Source: a virus
Taxonomy: Duplodnaviria > Caudoviricetes
DNA length: 60,512 nucleotides
Direction: 5' to 3' (one strand)
Virus record (IMG/VR): IMGVR_UViG_3300011335_000429
Coordinates: 1-60,512 of that record
In this document: positions 4,296 through 53,005 of the stretch, one piece after another
How the letters are laid out: each line of letters opens with the position of its first letter
How positions within the stretch are numbered: position 1 is the first letter of the stretch
The notes under the pieces: generated by a model
Told to the model about the DNA's origin: nothing
Seen by the model: only the letters and a program-made list of their open reading frames with translations
The model's database searches: none
Position numbers and translations under genes: made by a program

Positions 4296-4804
4296 TGGGT
4301 GATCTACTGAAAGGTCTGGCTCCAACCCTTGCAAGCGCCCTGCTCGGGCCTCTAGGTGGCGTAGCTGTTGCAGCCATAGGCAAGATCATTGGGGTAGACA
4401 ATGCTACCGTTGCCACGGTTACTGAGGCGTTCAACGACGGCAAGCTGACTCCTGAGCACCTTGCTGAAATCAAAAAGCTGGAACTCCAGTACCAGAACGA
4501 CGAAAAAGAACGCGGGTTCAAGTACGCTGATTTGGAGTTCAAAGACCGCGACTCGGCTCGACAGATGCAGATTTCCACGCATTCGTCCACACCAACTGTT
4601 TTGACCTACATGGTGACTGCAGGGTTTTTTGGCATCCTTGGCTGGATGATGCACGACAATAACGTAGTGGATTCCCCGCCCATCATGATTATGCTTGGTT
4701 CGTTGGGTACCGCGTGGACGGGGTGCATCAGCTTCTGGTTCGGTACCACCCAAGGTTCCCAGAACAAAGACCGTATGTTGCGTAACGCTCAACCGGTTAA
4801 ATAA
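4292..4804 (+). CDS. Holin-like membrane protein
   Basis: APTLASALLGPLGG N-terminus, DRDSARQMQ, two C-terminal TM helices ending FWFGT. Confidence 0.7.
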   Translation: MMGDLLKGLAPTLASALLGPLGGVAVAAIGKIIGVDNATVATVTEAFNDGKLTPEHLAEIKKLELQYQNDEKERGFKYADLEFKDRDSARQMQISTHSSTPTVLTYMVTAGFFGILGWMMHDNNVVDSPPIMIMLGSLGTAWTGCISFWFGTTQGSQNKDRMLRNAQPVK

Positions 4805-4807
4805 ATA

Positions 4808-6658
4808 GTGTACAAAACACTAAAACTGAAACCCGGCGTTGATCGTGAAGGAACTAACTATTCCAACGAGGGTACTTACTACGCCACAAATAAGGTTAGG
4901 TTTCGTTCTGGGTACCCTGAAAAACTGGGCGGGTGGGTACGATATACGGCGAATCAATTTACGGGTACTGCGCGTGCGCTAATCAACTGGATTAGTCTTG
5001 CCGGGTTGAACTATCTCGGCCTCGGTACGCACTTGAAATACATGATAGAGGTTAGTGGCACGTTCTTGGACGTTACACCAATTCGTTCTACCACGGCTGC
5101 AGGTGATGTGACATTTGCGGCTGCAAACGGTTCCGCTGTGATTACCGCGACAGACACAAACCACGGGGCCGTGACAAACGATTATGTAACTTTTTCCGGG
5201 GCCGTGTCACTTGGTGGGTTGATTACTGCGGCGGTGTTGAACCAAGAATATCAAGTCACTGTCATCAACGGTAGTTCCTATACGTTTACCGCCACAGCAA
5301 CGGCGAACGCGTCTGATACTGGTAACGGCGGAGGTGCAGTTGTTGGTGCTTACCAGATCAACACGGGTCTGGATGTATACGTTAGCGGTACGGGGTGGGG
5401 TGCCGGTACATACGGACGAGGCGGTTATGGTTCCGCAGCTACAGTATCGGTGGGTTCGCAATTACGCCTCTGGTCACACGATAACTTCGGTGAAGATTTG
5501 ATTGCGTGCGTGCGCGGTGGCGGGGTGTACTATTGGGATACAAGTGCGTTGGGTCGCATGGTTGCATTGACTGCATTGTCGGGGGCGTCACAAGCGCCAA
5601 CACAAGCAAACGTGGTTATGGTGTCTGATAACGACCGACACGTTATCTGCATTGGTGCAGATCAATTGAATGGGTCGGGGGCATTTGATCCACTGCTTAT
5701 TAGATGGTCAGACGTAGAAGATGCCGCCAACTGGCAACCCACAGCAACGAATTCGGCTGGTGATCTGCGGATGCAAAACGGATCGTATGTTGTGGCGGCA
5801 CTTCAGACGCGACAGGAAATCTTGATTTGGACAGACCAGACTGTATATTCACTGCAGTACGTGGGTGCGCCGCTTACTTTTGGTTTAAATATTCTCGGTG
5901 ATAGCCACGGGATCATTTCGCCTAATGCCGCAGTCACAGCGGACGGCGTTGTTTACTGGATGGCGCAGGATCGTTTTTATACGTATACCGGTCAAATTAC
6001 ACCTTTGATGAGTACCGTTTGGTTGCACGTTTTTAAAAACATTAATACGTATCAGGCATTTCAAGTTTTTGCGGCGACGAATTACAAATACAACGAAGTG
6101 TGGTGGTTCTATTGTTCCACTGACAGCAACACCATTGACTCCTACGTGATATACAACTACGTAGATACTACTTGGGCATATGGAACGCTGGCACGCACAG
6201 CTTGGTTGGATTCTCCGTTGCGCCCCTACCCAATGGCTACGGACTACAACAATCGCATTTTGTATCACGAGGCGTCGGCGGACGACGAATCAGGCGCTAC
6301 GCCAGTGGCAATCACTTCGTTCATAGAATCGGCGGACTTTGATATTGACGACGGCGATCATTTCAGTTTTGTAGACAAAATGATTCCAGACATTGACTTT
6401 AGCGAATCGACCACTGCAACGCCTTCGGTGGAAATTACGTTGTATCCTAGAAACTTTCCCGGTGCAGCGCAGGGTTCGTCTACAGCCAAAACGGTGACGG
6501 CTACAGCCATTTCCCCCGAAAGTTTGTACACGAATGAGGTGTATGTTCGGGTGCGGGGGAGACAACTGGCTTTTCGTATTACGAGCAACACGCTTGGTAC
6601 GTGGTGGCAACTGGGCATACCGCGCTTGAACATTCGTGTTGATGGGAGGAAGTCGTAA
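4808..6658 (+). CDS. Tail nozzle / DNA stabilisation protein (P22 gp10 or tail tubular B-like)
   Basis: 616-aa beta-rich protein with VRFRSGYPEKLGGW, IRWSD and EVWWFY motifs; precedes the ejection genes. Confidence 0.7.
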   Translation: MYKTLKLKPGVDREGTNYSNEGTYYATNKVRFRSGYPEKLGGWVRYTANQFTGTARALINWISLAGLNYLGLGTHLKYMIEVSGTFLDVTPIRSTTAAGDVTFAAANGSAVITATDTNHGAVTNDYVTFSGAVSLGGLITAAVLNQEYQVTVINGSSYTFTATATANASDTGNGGGAVVGAYQINTGLDVYVSGTGWGAGTYGRGGYGSAATVSVGSQLRLWSHDNFGEDLIACVRGGGVYYWDTSALGRMVALTALSGASQAPTQANVVMVSDNDRHVICIGADQLNGSGAFDPLLIRWSDVEDAANWQPTATNSAGDLRMQNGSYVVAALQTRQEILIWTDQTVYSLQYVGAPLTFGLNILGDSHGIISPNAAVTADGVVYWMAQDRFYTYTGQITPLMSTVWLHVFKNINTYQAFQVFAATNYKYNEVWWFYCSTDSNTIDSYVIYNYVDTTWAYGTLARTAWLDSPLRPYPMATDYNNRILYHEASADDESGATPVAITSFIESADFDIDDGDHFSFVDKMIPDIDFSESTTATPSVEITLYPRNFPGAAQGSSTAKTVTATAISPESLYTNEVYVRVRGRQLAFRITSNTLGTWWQLGIPRLNIRVDGRKS

Positions 6659-47089: not shown

Positions 47090-47624
47090 CGACTCGGAGA
47101 TGATGGAAATACTCAGCCAGCAACTGGCTGTGCCGCCTGATCCGAGCAAAACGGCCCCCTACCCGCGTGGATTGGCGTTGGATTTGGCGTTACAGACGGC
47201 TTCTCTCCCTGTAATACTGGAGTCCTACAACCTGACCCCTGCGGATGCGAAGCGTATCTTCGTTAACCCCGCGTTCCGTCTGGAATACGATGAGATGGTG
47301 GCTTCCACCAGACAGGAAGGCTTCTCATTCAGGCGAAAAGCGGCGGCGCAAGCCGAGGCGTATCTGGAAGTGTTGTGGGGGATGGCAAATTCGCCGTTAA
47401 CCCCGGCGGCTGTGCGTGCAGATATCGTCAAATCAACGGTAAAGTGGGGGGCGTTGGAGAGTGCGCCAACGGCGCAGGCTGCGGGTGCGGACATGTTCAG
47501 TGCGGAGGCGCTGCGAAAGTTGCAGGAGATGCCCGATCAGGAGTTGGAAGTCAATGTGATGAAGATCATCAGCCGCAAACGTCCTGAAGCAATGAAAACA
47601 ATCACTGTGGAAAACGAAAAATGA
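47073..47624 (+). CDS. Putative terminase small subunit
   Basis: Helical 183-aa protein upstream of terL; positional inference only. Confidence 0.45.
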   Translation: MNSPPDDSEMMEILSQQLAVPPDPSKTAPYPRGLALDLALQTASLPVILESYNLTPADAKRIFVNPAFRLEYDEMVASTRQEGFSFRRKAAAQAEAYLEVLWGMANSPLTPAAVRADIVKSTVKWGALESAPTAQAAGADMFSAEALRKLQEMPDQELEVNVMKIISRKRPEAMKTITVENEK

Positions 47625-47914
47625 TCGCAGAACAACTTGGATTGCATCGTAGACCGAAGGTACTGGAGTTTCGTGTGGTGGATGTGTTGAATGAAGCGTC
47701 GTATTTGGAGGCAGCGAAGTTACTGCGAGAGCGGGGTGACTTACCACTAATGCTGTTTGTGCAGGATGACCACGTGATGCCAGAGTTTGCCGAGTGGCTG
47801 TGGAATAACCACCGGGTGACGAGTTTTATGATGTTGCCGGTCGGTCTGTTGAATTCGCCGTCGCGGTGGGCGTTGGCGGGGCATAAATACACGGTGTTGG
47901 GCGGGTTGACTTGA
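47621..47914 (+). CDS. Hypothetical protein
   Basis: ATGA and TTGA coupling. Confidence 0.55.
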   Translation: MIAEQLGLHRRPKVLEFRVVDVLNEASYLEAAKLLRERGDLPLMLFVQDDHVMPEFAEWLWNNHRVTSFMMLPVGLLNSPSRWALAGHKYTVLGGLT

Positions 47915-50436
47915 TCCTATCGGAAGACGACTTCGATTTCTCGGCATTTGCGCCGAAGGAAGTGGTATTGATAAGGGAGTACCTGCGAAGGAAAGCAGTA
48001 CGGGCCAAAGGCGAGAAATTCATCGACTACGTGCAGGCGTTATGGCCTTGGTTTATTGTGGAAGCGGTGCACGTCATGATCGCTGACTATTTTGAGAAGC
48101 TGTTGGCAGGTGAAATTGACCGACTGATGATTAACATGCCTCCGCGTACTGGGAAAAGCGTGATGACATCCGAGGCGCTGCCTGCGTGGTGGATTGGGCA
48201 CTTCCCAACAGACAAAATACTGCACACAAGTTATGCGCTTGGGTTGGTGGAAAAGTTTGGCAGGAAAATCCGCAACTCGTTGGCAGACCCCGCGTATCAG
48301 GAAATGTTTCCCGGCACCCGGTTGGCAAAAGACAGCAAGGCCAGTGCGCAGTGGGCGACGGCGGTGGGGGGCGAGTACAACGCGGCGGGGTTGGGGGGTG
48401 GCGTGGCGGGTAAGGGCTGGAACCTCGGCATCATTGATGACCCAACGTCTGAGCAGGACGCATTTTCAAAAACTGCGCACGATAATGCGTTTGAGTGGTA
48501 CGGCGCGGGGTTTTACACCAGACGGCAACCGGACAGGAATGCTGTGGTGGTGACACAGTGTATGACAGGCGATACCCCCGTCCTGATGGCAAGTGGAACA
48601 GAAAAACCACTGCGTCACATCCAACCCGGTGATGAAGTGGCGACATACGAGAACGGGGCGTTGACTACTACCCGCGTAGCTGCGTGGCGGTCAAATGGTA
48701 TAGATGCCATATATACGGTGCACACACGATCTGGTAGAATACTCCGTGCTAACGAGCGACACCCGTTTCTTGTTGAGCAAAACGGAGAGCGAAAATGGGT
48801 GAGACTGCGCGACCTGACACCGGGCCTTGGCCTTGTACTACTGAAGGGTGTACTAGACTTGGGCGGACAAAAACCAGACCGGGAAAATGCAACGCTTGCA
48901 CGGCCTCCAAGTCGTATCACAAAAAACACCCTGATGCGCCGTATCGCCCGGTGGGGCATCATGGTAAGTGGAAAGGTAAATTCTGTATTGATGAAGCGTG
49001 CGCAGAACCCGCTATCATCCATGGATACTGCGCTTCACACCACCAGAAATTTCTTTGGTTGGTTGGGCACCGCAGTGCTTCGTATAGTCCCGAGTATCGA
49101 CGTAACGACCATCTTAAACGGCGCTACGGGATTACAACAAAACAATTCGACAAACTTTTTTGTGAACAGAAATACGTTTGCGCCGTATGTAAACAACCCC
49201 CATCAAAACACAATACTCGCGCACATTGGAACGGTAAGCTATGCGTCGATCACGACCACACAACGGGGCGTGTACGAGGGTTGTTGTGTAACGACTGCAA
49301 CCTCGCAGTCGGATACGCAAAGACCGCAGCTACAGCAGATGCAGTGGCGCAATATCTCCAACTTCACGGTGGATCGGATAACGGCGATAGTTCCTGATGG
49401 GCGGGAAGAAGTATTCGACGTAGAAATTGAACGCACGGAAAATTTCATTGCTAATGGATTTGTCAGCCATAACACCCGTTGGCGCACCGACGATTTGACC
49501 GGGCGGCTGTTGGAGGAAGAAAGGAAAGACGAGGGGGCGGACAAATGGACACTGCTTAAAATCCCCGCCATTTTGGATGAAGAGGGTGCGGATATGTTGA
49601 ATAAATACGCAAACCACCCCGCGATTAAGGTGCCGTGCAGGTACAGGGAAGGGGACAGCTTTGCGCCGCAGCGATGGCCGTTGGTGGAAATCAACCGCAC
49701 GATCAACCAGATCAGCAGGAAGGCGCAAGCGTCCCTGTACCGGCAAAGCCCCACGGAAGAAGAGGGTTCGATACTGTTAAGGAAATGGTGGCAGGTGTGG
49801 GAAAACGAGCCGCCGAAAGTGGAGTTTGTTATACAGTCCTACGACACGGCGTTTGAAGAATCCGAGCGAAACGACTTCTCGGCACGGACGACGTGGGGGG
49901 TATTCAAGTACGAGAAGACGAACCAGTACTGCGCGATACTGCTGGAAGCGATGGAAAAACGCCTTAATTTCCCCGACTTGCGACAAAACGCGTGGGAATC
50001 GTACCAGCAGTACAAGCCGGATCGCGTGATCGTGGAGAAGAAAGCCTCCGGTCACAGCTTGATCCAAGAACTGAGAAAACGCGGCGTGCCGATAACGGCG
50101 AGTCAGGCAAAAGGCTCCAAGGAAAGTCGTATGGATACGGCATCAGTACCCCTTGAGGCCGGGAACGTATACTATTTCGACACGCGTTGGGCTAATGCGG
50201 TGGTAGACCATTGCGCGGTGTTTCCGAACGGGCCAAATGATGACTTGGCTGACAGCGTGGCACACGCCTTGATTTGGCTGCGTAAAACGTTTCATTTGGA
50301 TGCCCGGTCAGATCGGCGCTTTGACAAGGATGCCGTTGAGGACGACGCGAATGAAAGATTTGCCGTTACCCCCCAGAGAAGTTACGCTGTACGGCGCACC
50401 GGCACCCGGATGCGCATAGGAGAAAGACATGGCTAA
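47911..50436 (+). CDS. terL: Terminase large subunit containing an intein
   Basis: Walker A MPPRTGKS, Walker B GIIDD, coupling motif VVVTQ/TRW split by the intein, nuclease motifs SYDTA, VEKKASG and DDLADS. Confidence 0.95.
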   Translation: MILSEDDFDFSAFAPKEVVLIREYLRRKAVRAKGEKFIDYVQALWPWFIVEAVHVMIADYFEKLLAGEIDRLMINMPPRTGKSVMTSEALPAWWIGHFPTDKILHTSYALGLVEKFGRKIRNSLADPAYQEMFPGTRLAKDSKASAQWATAVGGEYNAAGLGGGVAGKGWNLGIIDDPTSEQDAFSKTAHDNAFEWYGAGFYTRRQPDRNAVVVTQCMTGDTPVLMASGTEKPLRHIQPGDEVATYENGALTTTRVAAWRSNGIDAIYTVHTRSGRILRANERHPFLVEQNGERKWVRLRDLTPGLGLVLLKGVLDLGGQKPDRENATLARPPSRITKNTLMRRIARWGIMVSGKVNSVLMKRAQNPLSSMDTALHTTRNFFGWLGTAVLRIVPSIDVTTILNGATGLQQNNSTNFFVNRNTFAPYVNNPHQNTILAHIGTVSYASITTTQRGVYEGCCVTTATSQSDTQRPQLQQMQWRNISNFTVDRITAIVPDGREEVFDVEIERTENFIANGFVSHNTRWRTDDLTGRLLEEERKDEGADKWTLLKIPAILDEEGADMLNKYANHPAIKVPCRYREGDSFAPQRWPLVEINRTINQISRKAQASLYRQSPTEEEGSILLRKWWQVWENEPPKVEFVIQSYDTAFEESERNDFSARTTWGVFKYEKTNQYCAILLEAMEKRLNFPDLRQNAWESYQQYKPDRVIVEKKASGHSLIQELRKRGVPITASQAKGSKESRMDTASVPLEAGNVYYFDTRWANAVVDHCAVFPNGPNDDLADSVAHALIWLRKTFHLDARSDRRFDKDAVEDDANERFAVTPQRSYAVRRTGTRMRIGERHG
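48559..49473 (+). mobile_element. Intein (305 aa) in TerL
   Basis: Block A CMTGDTPVLMASG, block B ANERHPF, block F VFDVEIE, block G NFIANGFVSHN followed by Thr(+1). Confidence 0.93.
48795..49397 (+). CDS. Endonuclease VII-family (His-Me finger) homing endonuclease, out of frame inside the intein
   Basis: LKRRYGIT...Q...CAVC...LCVDHDHTTGRVRGLLCNDCNLAVG; N-terminal Cys/His zinc fingers; GGAGAG RBS before the ATG. Confidence 0.9.
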   Translation: MGETARPDTGPWPCTTEGCTRLGRTKTRPGKCNACTASKSYHKKHPDAPYRPVGHHGKWKGKFCIDEACAEPAIIHGYCASHHQKFLWLVGHRSASYSPEYRRNDHLKRRYGITTKQFDKLFCEQKYVCAVCKQPPSKHNTRAHWNGKLCVDHDHTTGRVRGLLCNDCNLAVGYAKTAATADAVAQYLQLHGGSDNGDSS

Positions 50437-53005
50437 ATCAATTGGAATGTTGAAGGTACAACCCGGTGCGCTCGAAGATATTTCGCTAACCCCCGGTGAA
50501 ATAGAAATTAACTTCGGTGTTACGCCGATTGATGAGATGGAAGCGTTTACTGTTGACCCTGAAACGGGTGACATAACCGAGAGCGGTGCGGAAGAAGATG
50601 CGGAGGCGACGGAAATCCAGAATGCGGCGTTTAATGACAACCTCGCGTGCTGCATGGAAGAAGATGACCTTGAAGATATTGGCACCAGTGTGTTGGAAAT
50701 GGTCAAGAACGACATCGATAGTCGTAAGGATTGGTATGAAAAACTGAAAGAAGGGTTGCAGCGTCTTGGTGTGTACAACCCCGACTCGGATGCGGACACC
50801 GGGATTGCAAAGGTTACGCACCCCCTCCTGTTGGAAGCGGCAACACAGTTTCAGGCCCGTGCGATGACGGAGTTGCTGCCCCCCGGTGGCCCGGTAAAAT
50901 CGTTTATCGAAGGGCTGAGTGACGAGGCTGTGCAAGCGCAAGCAAGCCGCGTCGAGCGGTATATGAACTACCAGCTTACGATTGAAGATCGGTCGTATTA
51001 CGACGAGCGCGACCAAATGATGTTCCTCCTGCCCTTCACCGGCAGCGAGTTTGACAAACAGTATTACTGCCCTGCAACAGAACGGGTGTTGAGTCGGTGG
51101 GTGCATTGCGACGACTTTATTGTGCCGTACAACACCAAGACACTGGAGGAAGCAACCCGCTACACCCACGTCGTTCGGATGACGGGCAATCAGCTTCGTG
51201 CTGCGATGGCGGCGGGGGTTTATGACGAAGTTGATTTGGGCGAACCAGTCAGTACGGATTTGAGCGAAGCGCCGTTGACATCCAAACTGCAGGAACTCGA
51301 CGGCCAGATTAAAGTCGATACGCTGGACGCAGACAAGGAATACACGCTGTACGAAGTGCACATTGATTACGATGTGGAAGGGCTAGTGGAAGCCGCACCG
51401 CTCCCGTTCATGATTACCATCGACAGCGAAACCGGCAAGGTTCTGAGTATCTACAGGAACTGGAAAGAAACGGATCGGCTACAACGTAAACGCATTCGGT
51501 TTACCCACAAGAAGTTCCTCCCCGGATTTGGGTTTTATGGATTCGGGTTGCTGCACTGCATTGGTAATTTGGGAGATGCGGCAAGCGAAATCCTGCGCAT
51601 TTTGATTGATTCCGGTGCGTTTGCCACGTTGCAGGGTGGATTCAAGTCCATCGACGCGAAGATCAAGGGCGATGTGATCCTGCAGCCCGGTCAGTGGCAA
51701 GACACCGAGATGACGGCGGATGAGTTGCAACGTGCGTTCTACACGCCCCCGTGGAAGGAACCCAGCCCAACGCTTGAGAAGTTGTTGGGAGTGCTGGTCG
51801 ATGCAGGGCAGAGATTTGCGTCTACTACGGAAACGATGACGGGCGATGCCGCGACGACTGGCCCGGTGGGGACGATGGTTGCGCAGATTGAACAGGGGAG
51901 CAAGGTGTTCTCCGGTATCCATAAGCGCCTGCACAAAGCGTTTGGTGATGAGTTTCTGCACATCGCTGAGTTGAATGGCGAGTATTTGCCTGACGCTTAT
52001 CCGTATCGTATGCAGACGCAGGAACAGAACGTGTTGCGTGCGGACTTTGATGGGCGCGTTGACATCATTCCTGTATCTGACCCGAACATCTTCTCCAGCG
52101 CACAACGCATCGCATTGGCGCAGTCGGCATTCCAGATGACAACGCAGTTGCCTGATATGGGTGATCGGCGTGAAGCGGCGGTGCAGTTGCTGACGGCGCT
52201 GCGTTATCCGAACCCGGAGAAGATATTTCCCAAACCAGCCGATGCGCAACGTGTTGACCCATTGAACGAAGGCTCCGTGATGTTGATGGGACGACCCATT
52301 AAAGCATTCTTGGATCAGGATCACACGTCGCACATGACGGTACACCAAGGGCAGATACAAGGACTACCGCCGCAATATCACCCGCTCATGACGGCGCATA
52401 TCGCTGAACACATGGCAATGGCGCAGTATATGAAGTTTGTAATGATGGGCGTGCAGTTGCCCCCTGTGAAGTGGGATGCGGAGAAGACCCTCCCGATGAT
52501 GCCTAACCTGCCGCCTGAAATTGAAACGCAGATTGCCAAGGCGTCGGCACAGGCAATGCAACAGATGATGCAGCAACTCCAGCAACAACAAGCCGCTCAA
52601 CAGGGTCAGCAACCCCAAGGTGGCGCGAATCCGCAAGCGGATGCAGCAGCAGCAACACAACAGAAATTGCAGGCGCAGGATGCGGAGTTTAAACAAAAAC
52701 TGCAACACAAGGATGCGGAGTTCCAATCCGAGCAACAACGCAAGAACGCGGAACTGGCTGCAAATGTGGATCGTGAAGACGCTCTATCGGGGATTTCTCC
52801 CGATATGGTGAAACAGGCACAGGAGTTCATCACAAATTCCGGGGTGCAAATGTCGCCGCGTGAACTGGCGGTGTTGTCTAAGGCGCTTGGGGCACCGTTT
52901 GATAAGGTCATACAGGCAATATCGCGTATGCAGATGGGTGGTCAGGGCGCTGGGCCAGTGCCTATCGTGACTAATTTTGAACAGAACCCGGCCAGATTTA
53001 CATAA
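50429..53005 (+). CDS. Portal protein
   Basis: HPLLLEAATQFQARA, YMNYQL, FLPGFGFYGFGL and PVGT motifs; follows terL; Gln-rich C-terminal barrel region. Confidence 0.88.
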   Translation: MAKSIGMLKVQPGALEDISLTPGEIEINFGVTPIDEMEAFTVDPETGDITESGAEEDAEATEIQNAAFNDNLACCMEEDDLEDIGTSVLEMVKNDIDSRKDWYEKLKEGLQRLGVYNPDSDADTGIAKVTHPLLLEAATQFQARAMTELLPPGGPVKSFIEGLSDEAVQAQASRVERYMNYQLTIEDRSYYDERDQMMFLLPFTGSEFDKQYYCPATERVLSRWVHCDDFIVPYNTKTLEEATRYTHVVRMTGNQLRAAMAAGVYDEVDLGEPVSTDLSEAPLTSKLQELDGQIKVDTLDADKEYTLYEVHIDYDVEGLVEAAPLPFMITIDSETGKVLSIYRNWKETDRLQRKRIRFTHKKFLPGFGFYGFGLLHCIGNLGDAASEILRILIDSGAFATLQGGFKSIDAKIKGDVILQPGQWQDTEMTADELQRAFYTPPWKEPSPTLEKLLGVLVDAGQRFASTTETMTGDAATTGPVGTMVAQIEQGSKVFSGIHKRLHKAFGDEFLHIAELNGEYLPDAYPYRMQTQEQNVLRADFDGRVDIIPVSDPNIFSSAQRIALAQSAFQMTTQLPDMGDRREAAVQLLTALRYPNPEKIFPKPADAQRVDPLNEGSVMLMGRPIKAFLDQDHTSHMTVHQGQIQGLPPQYHPLMTAHIAEHMAMAQYMKFVMMGVQLPPVKWDAEKTLPMMPNLPPEIETQIAKASAQAMQQMMQQLQQQQAAQQGQQPQGGANPQADAAAATQQKLQAQDAEFKQKLQHKDAEFQSEQQRKNAELAANVDREDALSGISPDMVKQAQEFITNSGVQMSPRELAVLSKALGAPFDKVIQAISRMQMGGQGAGPVPIVTNFEQNPARFT

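What the first reader, a model, noticed from the sequence alone, without database searches (positions are those of the whole stretch)
48559..49473. Terminase intein whose homing endonuclease is encoded in a different reading frame
Seen: the intein (Cys 48559 to His-Asn 49473, Thr+1) splits the TerL motif VVVTQ/TRW. Its in-frame middle (~200 aa) has no LAGLIDADG or HNH motif and looks like non-functional sequence, yet has no stop. The same DNA in the -1 frame (48795-49397) encodes a complete EndoVII-family nuclease (YGIT...CAVC...VDHDH..G.VRGLLC..CN) with N-terminal zinc fingers and its own SD (GGAGAG) and ATG. That ATG overlaps the intein K-W-V codons and the stop overlaps the block F region. 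A naive estimate for 200 stop-free codons is (61/64)^200, about 1e-4, so selection probably keeps both frames open. Established: intein endonucleases are normally in-frame domains. Inference: a composite selfish element in which splicing discards the off-frame peptide while the nuclease is translated independently, uncoupling homing from terminase expression. It may show how free endonucleases colonise mini-inteins.
Basis: partly seen in the sequence, partly recalled or inferred. Interest (0 to 1): 0.9.

Follow-up and report, generated by a model that had tools for sequence, protein, structure and literature searches.

The report
Terminase intein carrying an out-of-frame nuclease gene
A self-splicing protein insert in a freshwater phage's DNA-packaging gene carries its own nuclease gene in a shifted reading frame; the layout is real and widespread, but was described in 2025 for phages of actinobacteria.

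Summary
The TerL gene (47911-50436) carries a 305-codon intein (48559-49473). Inside it, a 200-codon Endonuclease VII-type HNH gene (48795-49397) lies in the +2 frame.

It is not a sequencing error. Logan contigs of runs from three studies give the stretch with no difference or gap. The same +2 offset is present in 80 of 80 related IMG/VR loci, 4 of 4 actinophages checked and 18 of 19 intein-borne copies in bacterial genome contigs.

Variation in the overlap follows the nuclease frame, and the in-frame middle (residues 99-265) is predicted disordered. The nuclease start codon uses the intein's invariant Trp80 codon. A GGAG Shine-Dalgarno lies on the Gly76 codon.

Two relatives, 90-94% identical in DNA, lack exactly bases 48559-49473, and intein presence changes at least 22 times on a TerL tree. 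This fits a mobile intein plus a separately translated homing nuclease. Splicing, translation and cleavage remain inferred; a homologue (Chandler gp6) was shown to splice.

The architecture is in print (Gosselin et al., bioRxiv 2025, actinophages), so this is a new member of a known kind. What I could add: its spread beyond actinophages, the constant frame offset and the start signals.

The parts
47911..50436 (+). Large terminase subunit (TerL, terminase_6 type) precursor ORF, 841 codons including the intein
   Evidence: ORF list. Pfam Terminase_6C E 4.2e-9 and Intein_splicing E 4.8e-14. The start codon is TTG as listed and was not verified.
47911..48558 (+). N-extein (216 codons), ending in VVVTQ
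   Evidence: It aligns without a gap to the intein-less alleles L086 and L087 up to base 48558.
48559..49473 (+). Intein, 305 codons: Cys1 to His-Asn, followed by Thr+1
   Evidence: Pfam. L086 and L087 lack exactly these 915 bases. All 64 rows of alignment A1 end in SHN and 63 of 64 begin with CM.
48559..48852 (+). Hint N-lobe (intein residues 1-98)
   Evidence: AlphaFold2 block means for residues 1-90 are all above 90; residues 99-265 are the only stretch under 50. Foldseek top hits are DnaB mini-inteins. Variation is highest at codon position 3 of the intein frame: 0.29/0.25/0.54.
48853..49353 (+). In-frame middle of the intein (residues 99-265): stop-free, predicted disordered linker with no domain of its own
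   Evidence: pLDDT is below 50 and there is no secondary structure. No Pfam nuclease family is found. Mean pairwise identity is 34% in this frame against 58% in the nuclease frame. The highest variation falls at intein-frame codon position 2.
49354..49473 (+). Hint C-lobe (residues 266-305), including the ENFIANG..SHN end block
   Evidence: Block means of pLDDT are above 90 from residue 271; residues 261-270 average 58. Residues E294-N299 and S303-N305 are invariant. Position diversity of the last 24 codons is 0.16/0.07/0.58.
48784..48789 (+). Shine-Dalgarno-like GGAGAG, five bases before the nuclease ATG; it lies on the Gly76-Glu77 codons of the intein
   Evidence: An SD-like 4-mer lies at -17 to -5 in 55 of 68 distinct relatives. 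The Gly codon there is GGA in 51 of 67, against 124 of 556 Gly codons elsewhere in the inteins.
48795..49397 (+). Nested nuclease gene (200 codons plus stop) in the +2 frame: Cys-rich N-terminal half and Endonuclease VII-type HNH core
   Evidence: ORF. Pfam PF02945. AlphaFold2 mean pLDDT is 82. Foldseek top hits are T4 endonuclease VII (E 4.6e-3, prob 1.0) and Hpy99I. There are 38 invariant columns, including the Cys and DH.H residues.
48834..49043 (+). Cys-rich region of the nuclease (residues 14-83): two putative zinc-binding modules. 'Zinc finger' is inferred from Cys spacing only.
   Evidence: Invariant C14, C19, C32, C64, C69 and C79, and nearly invariant C35, in alignment A2.
49110..49358 (+). 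Endonuclease VII / HNH catalytic core (nuclease residues 106-188)
   Evidence: Six-frame PF02945 match, E 1.5e-18, 62.6 bits; it is the only match in the 60.5-kb genome.
48795..48852 (+). 5' dual-use overlap: the first 19 nuclease codons lie on structured Hint N-lobe codons. The ATG is the last base of Lys79 plus the first two bases of invariant Trp80.
   Evidence: (W80 invariant). In the first 20 aligned nuclease codons the variation pattern follows the intein frame: 0.45/0.39/0.22. Nuclease residues 1-10 have mean pLDDT 52.
49354..49397 (+). 3' dual-use overlap: the low-confidence nuclease tail and its TGA stop lie on the first strand of the Hint C-lobe
   Evidence: Nuclease residues 191-200 have mean pLDDT 53.
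49474..50436 (+). C-extein, starting with TRW
   Evidence: It aligns from base 49474 to L086 and L087 immediately after their N-extein.

Best explanation
This is a two-gene selfish element inside the essential terL gene of a complete, uncultivated 60.5-kb freshwater phage.

Gene 1 is a class-1-type intein, inserted at a site that matches the TerL6-f site of mycobacteriophage Chandler, which Kelley et al. 2016 place in the ATPase coupling (C) motif. Ribosomes translating terL read straight through. They produce the two Hint lobes joined by about 167 residues of unstructured peptide. The intein then splices itself out and leaves a 536-aa terminase.

Gene 2 is an Endonuclease VII-type HNH nuclease with a Cys-rich N-terminal half. 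It occupies the same DNA in the +2 frame. It is translated on its own by internal initiation on the terL message, from a GGAG Shine-Dalgarno on the intein's Gly76 codon and an ATG built on the intein's Trp80 codon.

In a mixed infection the nuclease would cut the uninterrupted terL allele of a relative. Repair from the intein-bearing copy would then transfer intein and nuclease together. The intein makes the insertion harmless, and it probably also destroys the nuclease's target site in its own genome.

Shown here:
- the anatomy and its conservation;
- amino-acid-level selection on the nuclease frame, with only stop avoidance in the intein frame's middle;
- conserved start signals;
- precise presence/absence among close relatives;
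- many gains or losses on the TerL tree.

Inferred: splicing in this phage, internal initiation, nuclease activity and its target.
For: **Real, not an error**
- Logan contigs of runs from three studies cover 48400-49650 with 0 differences and 0 gaps. At most one of them can be the window's source.
- The nuclease frame is the intein frame +2 in 80 of 80 IMG/VR loci.
- The same offset is seen in AlanGrant, Angelicage, Phlyer and Chandler, 4 of 4 checked against their annotated CDS.
- It is also seen in 18 of 19 intein-borne copies in bacterial genome contigs.

**Selection by frame** (67 distinct sequences)
- In the overlap, diversity at nuclease-frame codon positions 1/2/3 is 0.33/0.27/0.55, and mean amino-acid identity is 58%.
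- The same DNA read in the intein frame gives 0.28/0.55/0.34 and 34% identity.
- The Hint lobes show the usual position-3 pattern in the intein frame.

**Stop avoidance**
- There are 0 stops in the intein frame in 68 of 68 distinct sequences, against a mean of 1.55 expected.
- Nuclease codons NTA are never followed by a purine (0 of 165), and NTG never by A (0 of 392). In a control region the figures are 177 of 357 and 154 of 366.

**Structure**
- Two confident Hint lobes flank residues 99-265, which have pLDDT below 50. Mini-inteins are the top fold matches.
- The nuclease model has mean pLDDT 82. T4 endonuclease VII and Hpy99I are its top matches.
- All 38 invariant columns of alignment A2 are kept in the window.

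**Start signals**
- A start codon lies at intein offset 233-239 in all 81 loci evaluated. W80 is invariant.
- An SD-like 4-mer is present in 55 of 68.
- GGA is used for Gly76 in 51 of 67, against a background of 124 of 556.
- No promoter-like site lies inside the intein.

**Mobility**
- L086 and L087 are 90-94% identical in DNA and lack exactly 48559-49473.
- 78 of 80 further TerL homologue loci have no insert at the site; 2 could not be judged.
- On a C-extein tree of 64 intein-bearing and 78 intein-free rows, presence changes at least 22 times, 12 of them forced by starred branches.
- The element is 56-66% identical between Angelicage and the listed aquatic loci, whose exteins are 18-27% identical.

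**Published support**
- The Chandler gp6 TerL6-f intein spliced quickly in a reporter (PMC5050341, passages). Chandler has the same +2 nuclease ORF.
- F-CphI is annotated in the S-PM2 record as a homing endonuclease. It matches the nuclease core at 48.6% identity, E 4e-11.
Against: - Nothing here shows that the nuclease is translated, that it cuts the empty terL allele, or that this particular intein splices.
- The only RNA-library contig found covers 48401-48661 and may be DNA carry-over.
- 13 of 68 distinct sequences lack an SD-like 4-mer.
- The Foldseek match of the nuclease model to T4 endonuclease VII is weak by E-value (4.6e-3; no match at E <= 0.001).
- Intein and extein identities are correlated across the IMG/VR set (Spearman 0.78). 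Much of the spread may therefore be vertical or between near relatives.
- No close donor of the window's intein was found; the best nuclease identity is 60%.
- The flanks next to the insertion show no co-conversion signal relative to L086 and L087.
- The intein-bearing and intein-free sets in the tree were collected with different queries, so the count of changes is not a frequency.
Confidence: 0.8

Rival explanations
1. The nuclease is domesticated. On this reading the EndoVII-type enzyme, made from the terL message at packaging time, serves the phage itself rather than homing, for example by trimming branched DNA or assisting terminase cutting. Those two roles are recalled from what is known of T4 endonuclease VII and of terminase-associated HNH proteins; they come from no call.
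For: - The gene sits inside terL and has no promoter-like site of its own.
- It is the only PF02945 match in the genome.
- It is under purifying selection.
- PMC3592412 (search-listing abstract only) says many phages encode HNH proteins next to terminase genes.
Against: - TerL alleles 98-99% identical in protein lack it together with the intein, so it is dispensable for this TerL.
- Its presence is patchy on the TerL tree.
- One distinct relative (loci L073 and L076) carries a nonsense codon in the nuclease frame while its TerL frame stays open.
- A relative of its core, F-CphI, is annotated as a homing endonuclease.
Confidence: 0.07
2. Decaying relic. The intein is in effect a mini-intein, and the nuclease ORF is a remnant that is no longer expressed and is open only because it has not yet been hit.
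For: - One distinct sequence of 68 (loci L073 and L076) has a premature stop in the nuclease frame.
- Expression was not shown.
- No close donor was found.
Against: - 67 of 68 distinct sequences keep a full ORF at 41-60% identity to the window's.
- Variation concentrates at the nuclease frame's third codon position.
- 38 columns are invariant, including the catalytic and Cys residues.
- The start codon and the GGA/GGAG are conserved.
Confidence: 0.05
3. Programmed frameshifting. Ribosomes shift from the intein frame into the nuclease frame, and possibly back, making an intein-nuclease fusion rather than a free protein.
For: In the window a run of four A lies directly before the ATG (48792-48795). 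A -1 slip there would enter the nuclease frame.
Against: - The bases before the start differ widely among relatives, and no shared slippery run is seen.
- In 12 of 68 a stop codon in the nuclease frame directly precedes the start.
- In all loci the nuclease frame is closed 0-42 codons upstream.
- A conserved ATG or GTG with GGAG points to initiation.
- A second shift would be needed to complete the intein.
Confidence: 0.03
4. Sequencing or assembly artefact. Two compensating indels put an in-frame nuclease domain out of frame.
For: None found.
Against: - The same offset appears in 80 of 80 IMG/VR loci, 4 of 4 isolate phage genomes checked and 18 of 19 genome-contig copies.
- Contigs of runs from three studies have 0 gaps.
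Confidence: 0.005

Closest known systems
[quoted passage not shown] Their named examples are Angelicage (spelled 'Angelicase' in the text), Affeca, Keitabear and Sedona.
   Same: - Same host gene and same nuclease family.
- Same strand and same frame ('frame 3' relative to the intein).
- Same disordered in-frame middle.
- Same proposed origin, by invasion of an intein by a free-standing nuclease gene.
- They are direct homologues. To Angelicage the nuclease is 50% identical and the Hint N-lobe 62%. Short stretches of DNA are 73-78% identical.
   Different: - The window is not an actinophage. Its G+C is about 0.53, its portal is nearest to Roseobacter, Pelagibacter and Caulobacter phages, and it occurs in freshwater, lake and river runs.
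- Its nuclease has an extra N-terminal Cys module that Angelicage and Phlyer lack and AlanGrant has.
- The preprint text contains no word beginning 'metagenom' and no 'start codon'.
TerL6-f intein of mycobacteriophage Chandler gp6 (Kelley et al. 2016, mBio, PMC5050341; passages read)
   Same: - Homologous intein at a matching site. The flanks are ILIQ / TRWH in its sister phage Phlyer and VVVTQ / TRWR in the window.
- Chandler carries the same +2 nuclease ORF.
- Its intein was shown to splice.
   Different: The passages I read name no nuclease for TerL6-f, and endonuclease activity was tested only for TerL1-b and TerL1-c. Chandler is a cluster B3 mycobacteriophage.
[quoted passage not shown]
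   Same: - An intein whose nuclease lies in the +2 frame.
- Purifying selection in the nuclease frame and relaxed selection in the overlapped intein frame.
- Sporadic distribution.
   Different: The nuclease there is LAGLIDADG rather than EndoVII/HNH. The host gene is cellular (dnaX), not a phage gene. The two inteins are unrelated in sequence as far as I tested: none of my searches returned it.
ShiLan 'hidden HNH' insertion in a phage DNA methylase (Arsenault et al. 2025, PMC11855218; abstract and Discussion read)
   Same: An HNH gene nested out of frame inside a host gene whose frame stays open through it.
   Different: The ShiLan element has no splicing domain, so the extra peptide stays in the host protein. 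The authors found no ribosome binding site. Here a Hint domain removes the peptide, and a GGAG is conserved.
Free-standing EndoVII-type homing endonucleases such as F-CphI of cyanophage S-PM2. The name is from the record's annotation. Its target, next to the psbA intron site, is recalled and comes from no call.
   Same: The nuclease core is related (48.6% identity over residues 98-169, E 4e-11). It is a free protein, not fused to a splicing element. A splicing element interrupts the target gene.
   Different: F-CphI is a separate gene, not nested in a coding frame, and the partner there is an RNA intron rather than an intein.
T4 endonuclease VII (PDB 1e7l, 1en7, 2qnf)
   Same: Same Pfam family and best fold match.
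   Different: By recall, T4 EndoVII is a junction-resolving enzyme and not a homing enzyme. The match covers about 85 alignment columns at 26% identity, and the window protein adds a Cys-rich N-terminal half.

Membership tests
Intein (Hint-fold protein-splicing element) | Hint fold made of N- and C-terminal splicing lobes | tested here: met
   Pfam Intein_splicing is above its cut-off. In the AlphaFold2 model only residues 99-265 fall below pLDDT 50, and the block means of the flanking lobes are above 90. Foldseek top hits are DnaB mini-inteins, E 4.6e-9.
Intein (Hint-fold protein-splicing element) | Nucleophile at position 1, terminal Asn (usually His-Asn), and Cys/Ser/Thr at +1 | tested here: met
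   Cys1, His304-Asn305 and Thr+1 are present in the window. SHN is present in 64 of 64 rows and CM in 63 of 64. Block B reads A-N-E-R-H, with Asn where I recall Thr being usual.
Intein (Hint-fold protein-splicing element) | In-frame, stop-free insertion in a host protein, precisely absent from homologues | tested here: met
   The frame is open in 81 of 81 loci. L086 and L087 lack exactly 48559-49473. 78 of 80 other TerL homologue loci have contiguous exteins at the site; 2 could not be judged.
Intein (Hint-fold protein-splicing element) | Protein splicing activity | not testable with these tools
   Only by homology: the Chandler gp6 TerL6-f intein spliced in a reporter (PMC5050341).
Endonuclease VII / HNH (His-Me finger), Pfam PF02945 | Profile match above the curated cut-off | tested here: met
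   60.2 bits against a cut-off of 23.6; 62.6 bits in the six-frame search.
Endonuclease VII / HNH (His-Me finger), Pfam PF02945 | Beta-beta-alpha-metal fold with catalytic His/Asn and a four-Cys zinc site | tested here: met
   Invariant C129, C132, D152, H153, H155, C165, N166, C168 and N169. The model has strands at 150-153 and 160-164 followed by a helix at 166-175. The best fold matches are T4 EndoVII and Hpy99I at prob 1.0, but the E-value is only 4.6e-3.
Endonuclease VII / HNH (His-Me finger), Pfam PF02945 | Nuclease activity | not testable with these tools
Non-canonical intein with an out-of-frame EndoVII-like nuclease (Gosselin et al. 2025) | Nuclease ORF lies between the splicing lobes, on the same strand, in frame 3 (+2) relative to the intein | tested here: met
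   The offset is 236 bases, which is 2 mod 3.
Non-canonical intein with an out-of-frame EndoVII-like nuclease (Gosselin et al. 2025) | Sequence homology of both intein and nuclease to the described actinophage examples | tested here: met
   Against Angelicage the nuclease is 50% identical and the Hint N-lobe 62%. Against Phlyer, Chandler and AlanGrant the nuclease is 40-47% and the Hint N-lobe 58%.
Non-canonical intein with an out-of-frame EndoVII-like nuclease (Gosselin et al. 2025) | In-frame middle has no recognisable structure | tested here: met
   pLDDT is below 50 and no secondary structure is predicted at residues 99-265.
Homing endonuclease gene (functional class) | Sporadic presence among close relatives, with an intact empty site | tested here: met
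Homing endonuclease gene (functional class) | Cleaves the allele that lacks the element and drives its own copying | not testable with these tools
   Needs a cleavage assay and mixed infections.

The most novel reading that the evidence does not exclude
The out-of-frame layout is not a passing stage of colonisation. It is one old and evolutionarily stable dual-coding design.

A single intein lineage carries its nuclease in the +2 frame, with the Shine-Dalgarno and start codon built into the Gly76 and Trp80 codons of the Hint fold. That lineage is now spread through phages and prophages associated with several bacterial phyla, including actinobacterial, alphaproteobacterial and clostridial isolates and many aquatic viral contigs.

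No in-frame derivative appeared among 102 intact intein-borne copies (80 viral, 4 actinophage, 18 genome-contig); a nineteenth genome-contig copy, L106, has a broken TerL frame. The 2025 preprint suggests that such ORFs could drift into frame by small indels. If the out-of-frame state is instead selected, possible reasons are these: an in-frame, DNA-binding EndoVII domain might hinder folding or splicing of the terminase precursor, or separate initiation might set a low nuclease dose.
Probability: 0.5. Interest if true: 0.55.

Novelty: new member of a known kind. Interest (0 to 1): 0.4.

Why it matters
The window gives a clean natural example, outside actinophages, of how a free-standing nuclease gene and a mini-intein can merge into one mobile unit without being fused as protein.

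The family-wide data obtained here add three things to the published description.
- The architecture is common in environmental phages: 227 IMG/VR stretches encode a relative, and all 80 examined show the layout.
- The frame offset is constant.
- The nuclease's translation signals are written into conserved intein codons.

This makes the 'splicing first, nuclease later' model of intein origin testable, because matched empty and occupied alleles (L086/L087 against the window) are in hand.

On the practical side, gene callers and intein surveys that look only in frame will label such inteins as nuclease-less and miss the nested gene. Kelley et al. 2016 reported no nuclease for TerL6-f in the passages I read.

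Tried and rejected
- **Internal promoter for the nuclease.** The sigma-70-type scan of 47500-50600 found one site, at 48103, where shuffles give a mean of 2.3. None lies inside the intein. This is not evidence either way for other promoter types.
- **Expression.** The only run on record as RNA (X20) gave one contig over 48401-48661. It crosses the extein-intein junction but does not reach the nuclease ORF, and it may be DNA in an RNA library. I draw nothing from it.
- **Fold match of the nuclease model.** No match reached E <= 0.001. I did not run the wider structural search.
- **Co-conversion tract.** The 90 bases on each side of the insertion differ from L086 and L087 at about the same rate as the flanks overall, so there is no signal.
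- **Close donor.** The best nuclease identity in IMG/VR is 60%, so the source of the window's intein is unknown.
- **Roseophage DSS3_VP1.** Its authors describe a group I intron with a 'Type VII' homing endonuclease in terL (PMC8323127, passages). I checked whether it is a misread case of this architecture. It is not. Its TerL is annotated as two CDS with a separate ORF between them. The ORF matches the nuclease core at 36% identity, and no Hint lobe was found at E <= 1e-2.
- **In-frame versions.** None was found. The one copy in which the Hint N-lobe and the nuclease share a frame (L106) has its Hint C-lobe in another frame, so its TerL is broken. It is a pseudogene or an indel error.
- **Loci not examined.** Only the best 80 of 227 IMG/VR stretches and the 29 genome-contig loci were examined. 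The metagenome collection was not scanned. An in-frame form could exist among loci not examined.
- **Rows dropped before counts.**
  - L015 and L079 (cut contigs) and L047 (ends in SSN rather than SHN) were left out of the set of 81 loci. All three still show the +2 offset.
  - L073 (truncated nuclease) was left out of the diversity statistics.
  - L001-L003 were left out of the alignments sent to structure prediction, as the tool requires.
  - L001-L003, and loci with under 230 clean C-extein residues, were left out of the tree. L156 and L191 were left out as not judgeable.
- **Supplements.** The supplements of all papers were closed. Supplemental Table 1 of the 2025 preprint may list which phages carry the EndoVII-type nuclease, and I could not see it.

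Full report
**What is there**

The window is a complete virus record of 60,512 bases with direct terminal repeats. Its G+C is about 0.53. Its portal protein is nearest to those of Roseobacter phages CRP-901/902, Pelagibacter phages HTVC023P/027P and Caulobacter phages, at 34-42% identity.

The terL ORF runs from 47911 to 50436 (841 aa). It matches Terminase_6C and Intein_splicing in Pfam. The intein starts with Cys at 48559 and ends with His-Asn at 49473, followed by Thr. The flanks read VVVTQ and TRW.

An ATG ORF of 200 codons lies at 48795-49397 in the +2 frame. It matches Endonuclease_7 (PF02945) at E 1.9e-16, well above the curated cut-off. It is the only PF02945 match in the genome, and the intein is the only Intein_splicing match.

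The nuclease frame opens just six codons before the ATG. GGAGAG lies five bases upstream of it.

**Not an artefact**

Logan contigs of runs from three different studies (river 2025, lake 2019, lake 2023) cover 48400-49650 with no difference and no gap. At most one of them can be the window's own source.

More telling is the behaviour of relatives. A search of IMG/VR with the nuclease protein found 227 stretches that encode a relative. In all 80 that were fetched, the nuclease lies inside a terL intein in the frame one behind the intein frame, which is the same +2 offset.

The best matches among isolate phage genomes lie inside the annotated terminase genes of actinophages. In AlanGrant, Angelicage, Phlyer and Chandler the offset from the annotated CDS start is again 2 mod 3. 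Each of the three whose ORFs I listed has a separate ORF of 151-194 codons; for Chandler the offset and a 183-codon open frame were seen.

In bacterial genome contigs, 19 of 29 loci found carry the nuclease within the intein. Eighteen of the 19 have the same offset and an open TerL frame. They include isolates of Bradyrhizobium, Mycolicibacterium, Oribacterium and Dysosmobacter, and MAGs labelled with many phyla. The exception, L106, has a broken TerL frame.

**Which frame is selected where**

From 81 usable loci I took 68 distinct intein DNA sequences.

| Region | Frame read | Diversity at codon positions 1/2/3 | Mean aa identity |
|---|---|---|---|
| Overlap | nuclease | 0.33/0.27/0.55 | 58% |
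| Overlap, same DNA | intein | 0.28/0.55/0.34 | 34% |
| Hint N-lobe | intein | 0.29/0.25/0.54 | 62% |
| Last 24 intein codons | intein | 0.16/0.07/0.58 | 82% |
| First 20 aligned nuclease codons | nuclease | 0.45/0.39/0.22 | - |

All values are, on 67 sequences.

In the overlap, most change therefore falls on the second codon position of the intein frame. That is what is expected if the amino-acid sequence in that frame does not matter. The first 20 aligned nuclease codons follow the intein frame instead. So each stretch of DNA is under amino-acid selection in essentially one frame, with short dual-use ends.

The intein frame is kept open by codon choice.
- None of the 68 sequences has a stop there, although reshuffling each ORF's own synonymous codons gives 1.55 stops on average.
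- Nuclease codons NTA are never followed by a purine (0 of 165), and NTG never by A (0 of 392). In a control region the figures are 177 of 357 and 154 of 366.
- For the window alone, the chance of an open frame is 3-4%, not the 1e-4 of the naive estimate.

**Structure**

With a 64-row alignment, AlphaFold2 models the intein as two confident Hint lobes. Block means of pLDDT are above 90 for residues 1-90 and from 271 on. Residues 99-265 have pLDDT below 50 and no secondary structure. The best fold matches are DnaB and RecA mini-inteins.

The nuclease model has mean pLDDT 82. Its best matches are T4 endonuclease VII and Hpy99I at probability 1.0, but with weak E-values. All 38 invariant columns of the nuclease alignment, including the Cys ligands and the D-H-x-H and N residues, are present in the window.

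**Translation signals**

A start codon lies at intein offset 233-239 in all 81 loci, ATG in most and GTG in a few. It is made of the last base of the codon before the intein's invariant Trp80 plus the TG of that Trp codon.

An SD-like 4-mer lies 5-17 bases upstream in 55 of 68 distinct sequences. It sits on the nearly invariant Gly76. That Gly uses GGA in 51 of 67 cases, against 124 of 556 Gly codons elsewhere in the same inteins, which is a synonymous-site bias.

In 12 of 68 a stop in the nuclease frame directly precedes the start, and no shared slippery run is present. This argues for initiation and against frameshifting. No promoter-like site lies inside the intein, so the nuclease is probably read from the terL message.

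**Mobility**

Two IMG/VR contigs (L086, L087) are 90-94% identical to the window in DNA on both sides. They join base 48558 directly to 49474, so they lack exactly the 915 intein bases. A third contig (L085) is 96% identical and carries the intein end.

A second scan with a C-extein alignment returned 80 further TerL homologue loci. Of these, 78 have contiguous exteins at the site and 2 could not be judged.

On a FastTree of 64 intein-bearing and 78 intein-free C-exteins, presence changes at least 22 times. Twelve of these are forced by starred branches, and shuffled labels need a mean of 46.8. The two sets were collected with different queries, so this shows patchiness and not a frequency.

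Across large distances the element is far better conserved than its host gene. Between Angelicage and the listed aquatic loci it is 56-66% identical, while their exteins are 18-27% identical. Within the aquatic set, intein and extein identities are correlated (Spearman 0.78).

**What is known**

The architecture is in print.
[quoted passage not shown] They name Angelicage, Affeca, Keitabear and Sedona. They note that the in-frame part has no recognisable structure, and they propose invasion of an intein by a free-standing nuclease gene.
- The same group described an out-of-frame HNH without a splicing domain in a methylase (PMC11855218). They also described an out-of-frame LAGLIDADG nuclease in the cyanobacterial dnaX intein, with frame-specific selection (bioRxiv 10.64898/2026.09.14.751524).
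- Kelley et al. 2016 (PMC5050341, passages) placed the TerL6-f intein in the ATPase coupling motif. They showed that the Chandler gp6 intein splices. The passages I read name no nuclease for it.

Four full-text searches found no report of this element outside actinophages.

**Verdict**

It is, however, a new member of a recently described kind.
- its wide occurrence beyond actinophages;
- the constant +2 offset, with no in-frame derivative among the copies examined;
- start signals embedded in conserved Hint codons;
- matched empty and occupied alleles for experiments.

Splicing, internal initiation and cleavage remain to be shown.

Noticed in passing
L029:1176-2150 (also suggested for L023, L030, L040, L054, L056, L094 and L103 by a gap or extra-long open frame in the N-extein): Some relatives carry a second, conventional intein in the same terL, just after the Walker-B-like IIDDPH. 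It begins with Ala, ends in THN and is followed by Ser. Its LAGLIDADG nuclease is in frame (Pfam LAGLIDADG_3 E 1.6e-7). One gene thus hosts a canonical and a non-canonical intein.
   Followed up: partly
L111:1723-2148 within the open frame L111:629-2920: A family-A DNA polymerase gene (Pfam DNA_pol_A E 1.5e-28) lies on a contig of a MAG labelled Saccharibacteria. It holds an EndoVII-type ORF of 141 codons (PF02945 E 2.5e-20) one frame behind the polymerase frame. My intein queries found no Hint lobe. It looks like a ShiLan-type hidden nuclease in a polymerase.
   Followed up: partly
L073 and L076 (same intein DNA), nuclease frame offset 334 from the intein start: There is a premature stop in the nuclease frame after 31 codons. 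The intein/TerL frame stays open, and the rest of the nuclease frame still aligns at 55% identity. This looks like a recently inactivated nuclease inside a still intact intein.
   Followed up: partly
L048:1218-1283: The first 21 intein residues, including Cys1, are replaced by a divergent copy of the start of the C-extein (TRWGKRDLTGQVL...), directly after the N-extein. It is either a dead recombinant between an empty and an occupied allele or a metagenome assembly chimera of the two.
   Followed up: partly
L106:2141-3050: In a 911-kb contig of an alphaproteobacterial MAG the Hint N-lobe and the nuclease share a frame, but the Hint C-lobe and C-extein are in another. TerL is therefore interrupted: a prophage pseudogene or an indel error of the assembly.
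   Followed up: no
L047:1040-2074: This intein ends in Ser-Ser-Asn instead of Ser-His-Asn, so it lacks the penultimate His. It keeps the full +2 nuclease ORF.
   Followed up: no
L041:2115-3137: The intein has 341 codons and the nuclease 236. The extra stretch of about 38 residues lies near the nuclease N-terminus, and both frames remain open through it.
   Followed up: no
window 47621-47914 and 47911: The 97-codon ORF upstream of terL ends four bases into the listed TTG start of terL (overlap TTGA). The true terL start, and hence the 536-aa figure for the spliced product, is not verified.
   Followed up: no
L200 (Bacteriophage DSS3_VP1, MN602266) 4390-6410: terL is annotated as two CDS with a separate ORF between them. 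That ORF matches the EndoVII-type core at 36% identity, and no Hint lobe is found. This is a different way, an intron according to its authors, for the same nuclease family to sit in terL.
   Followed up: yes
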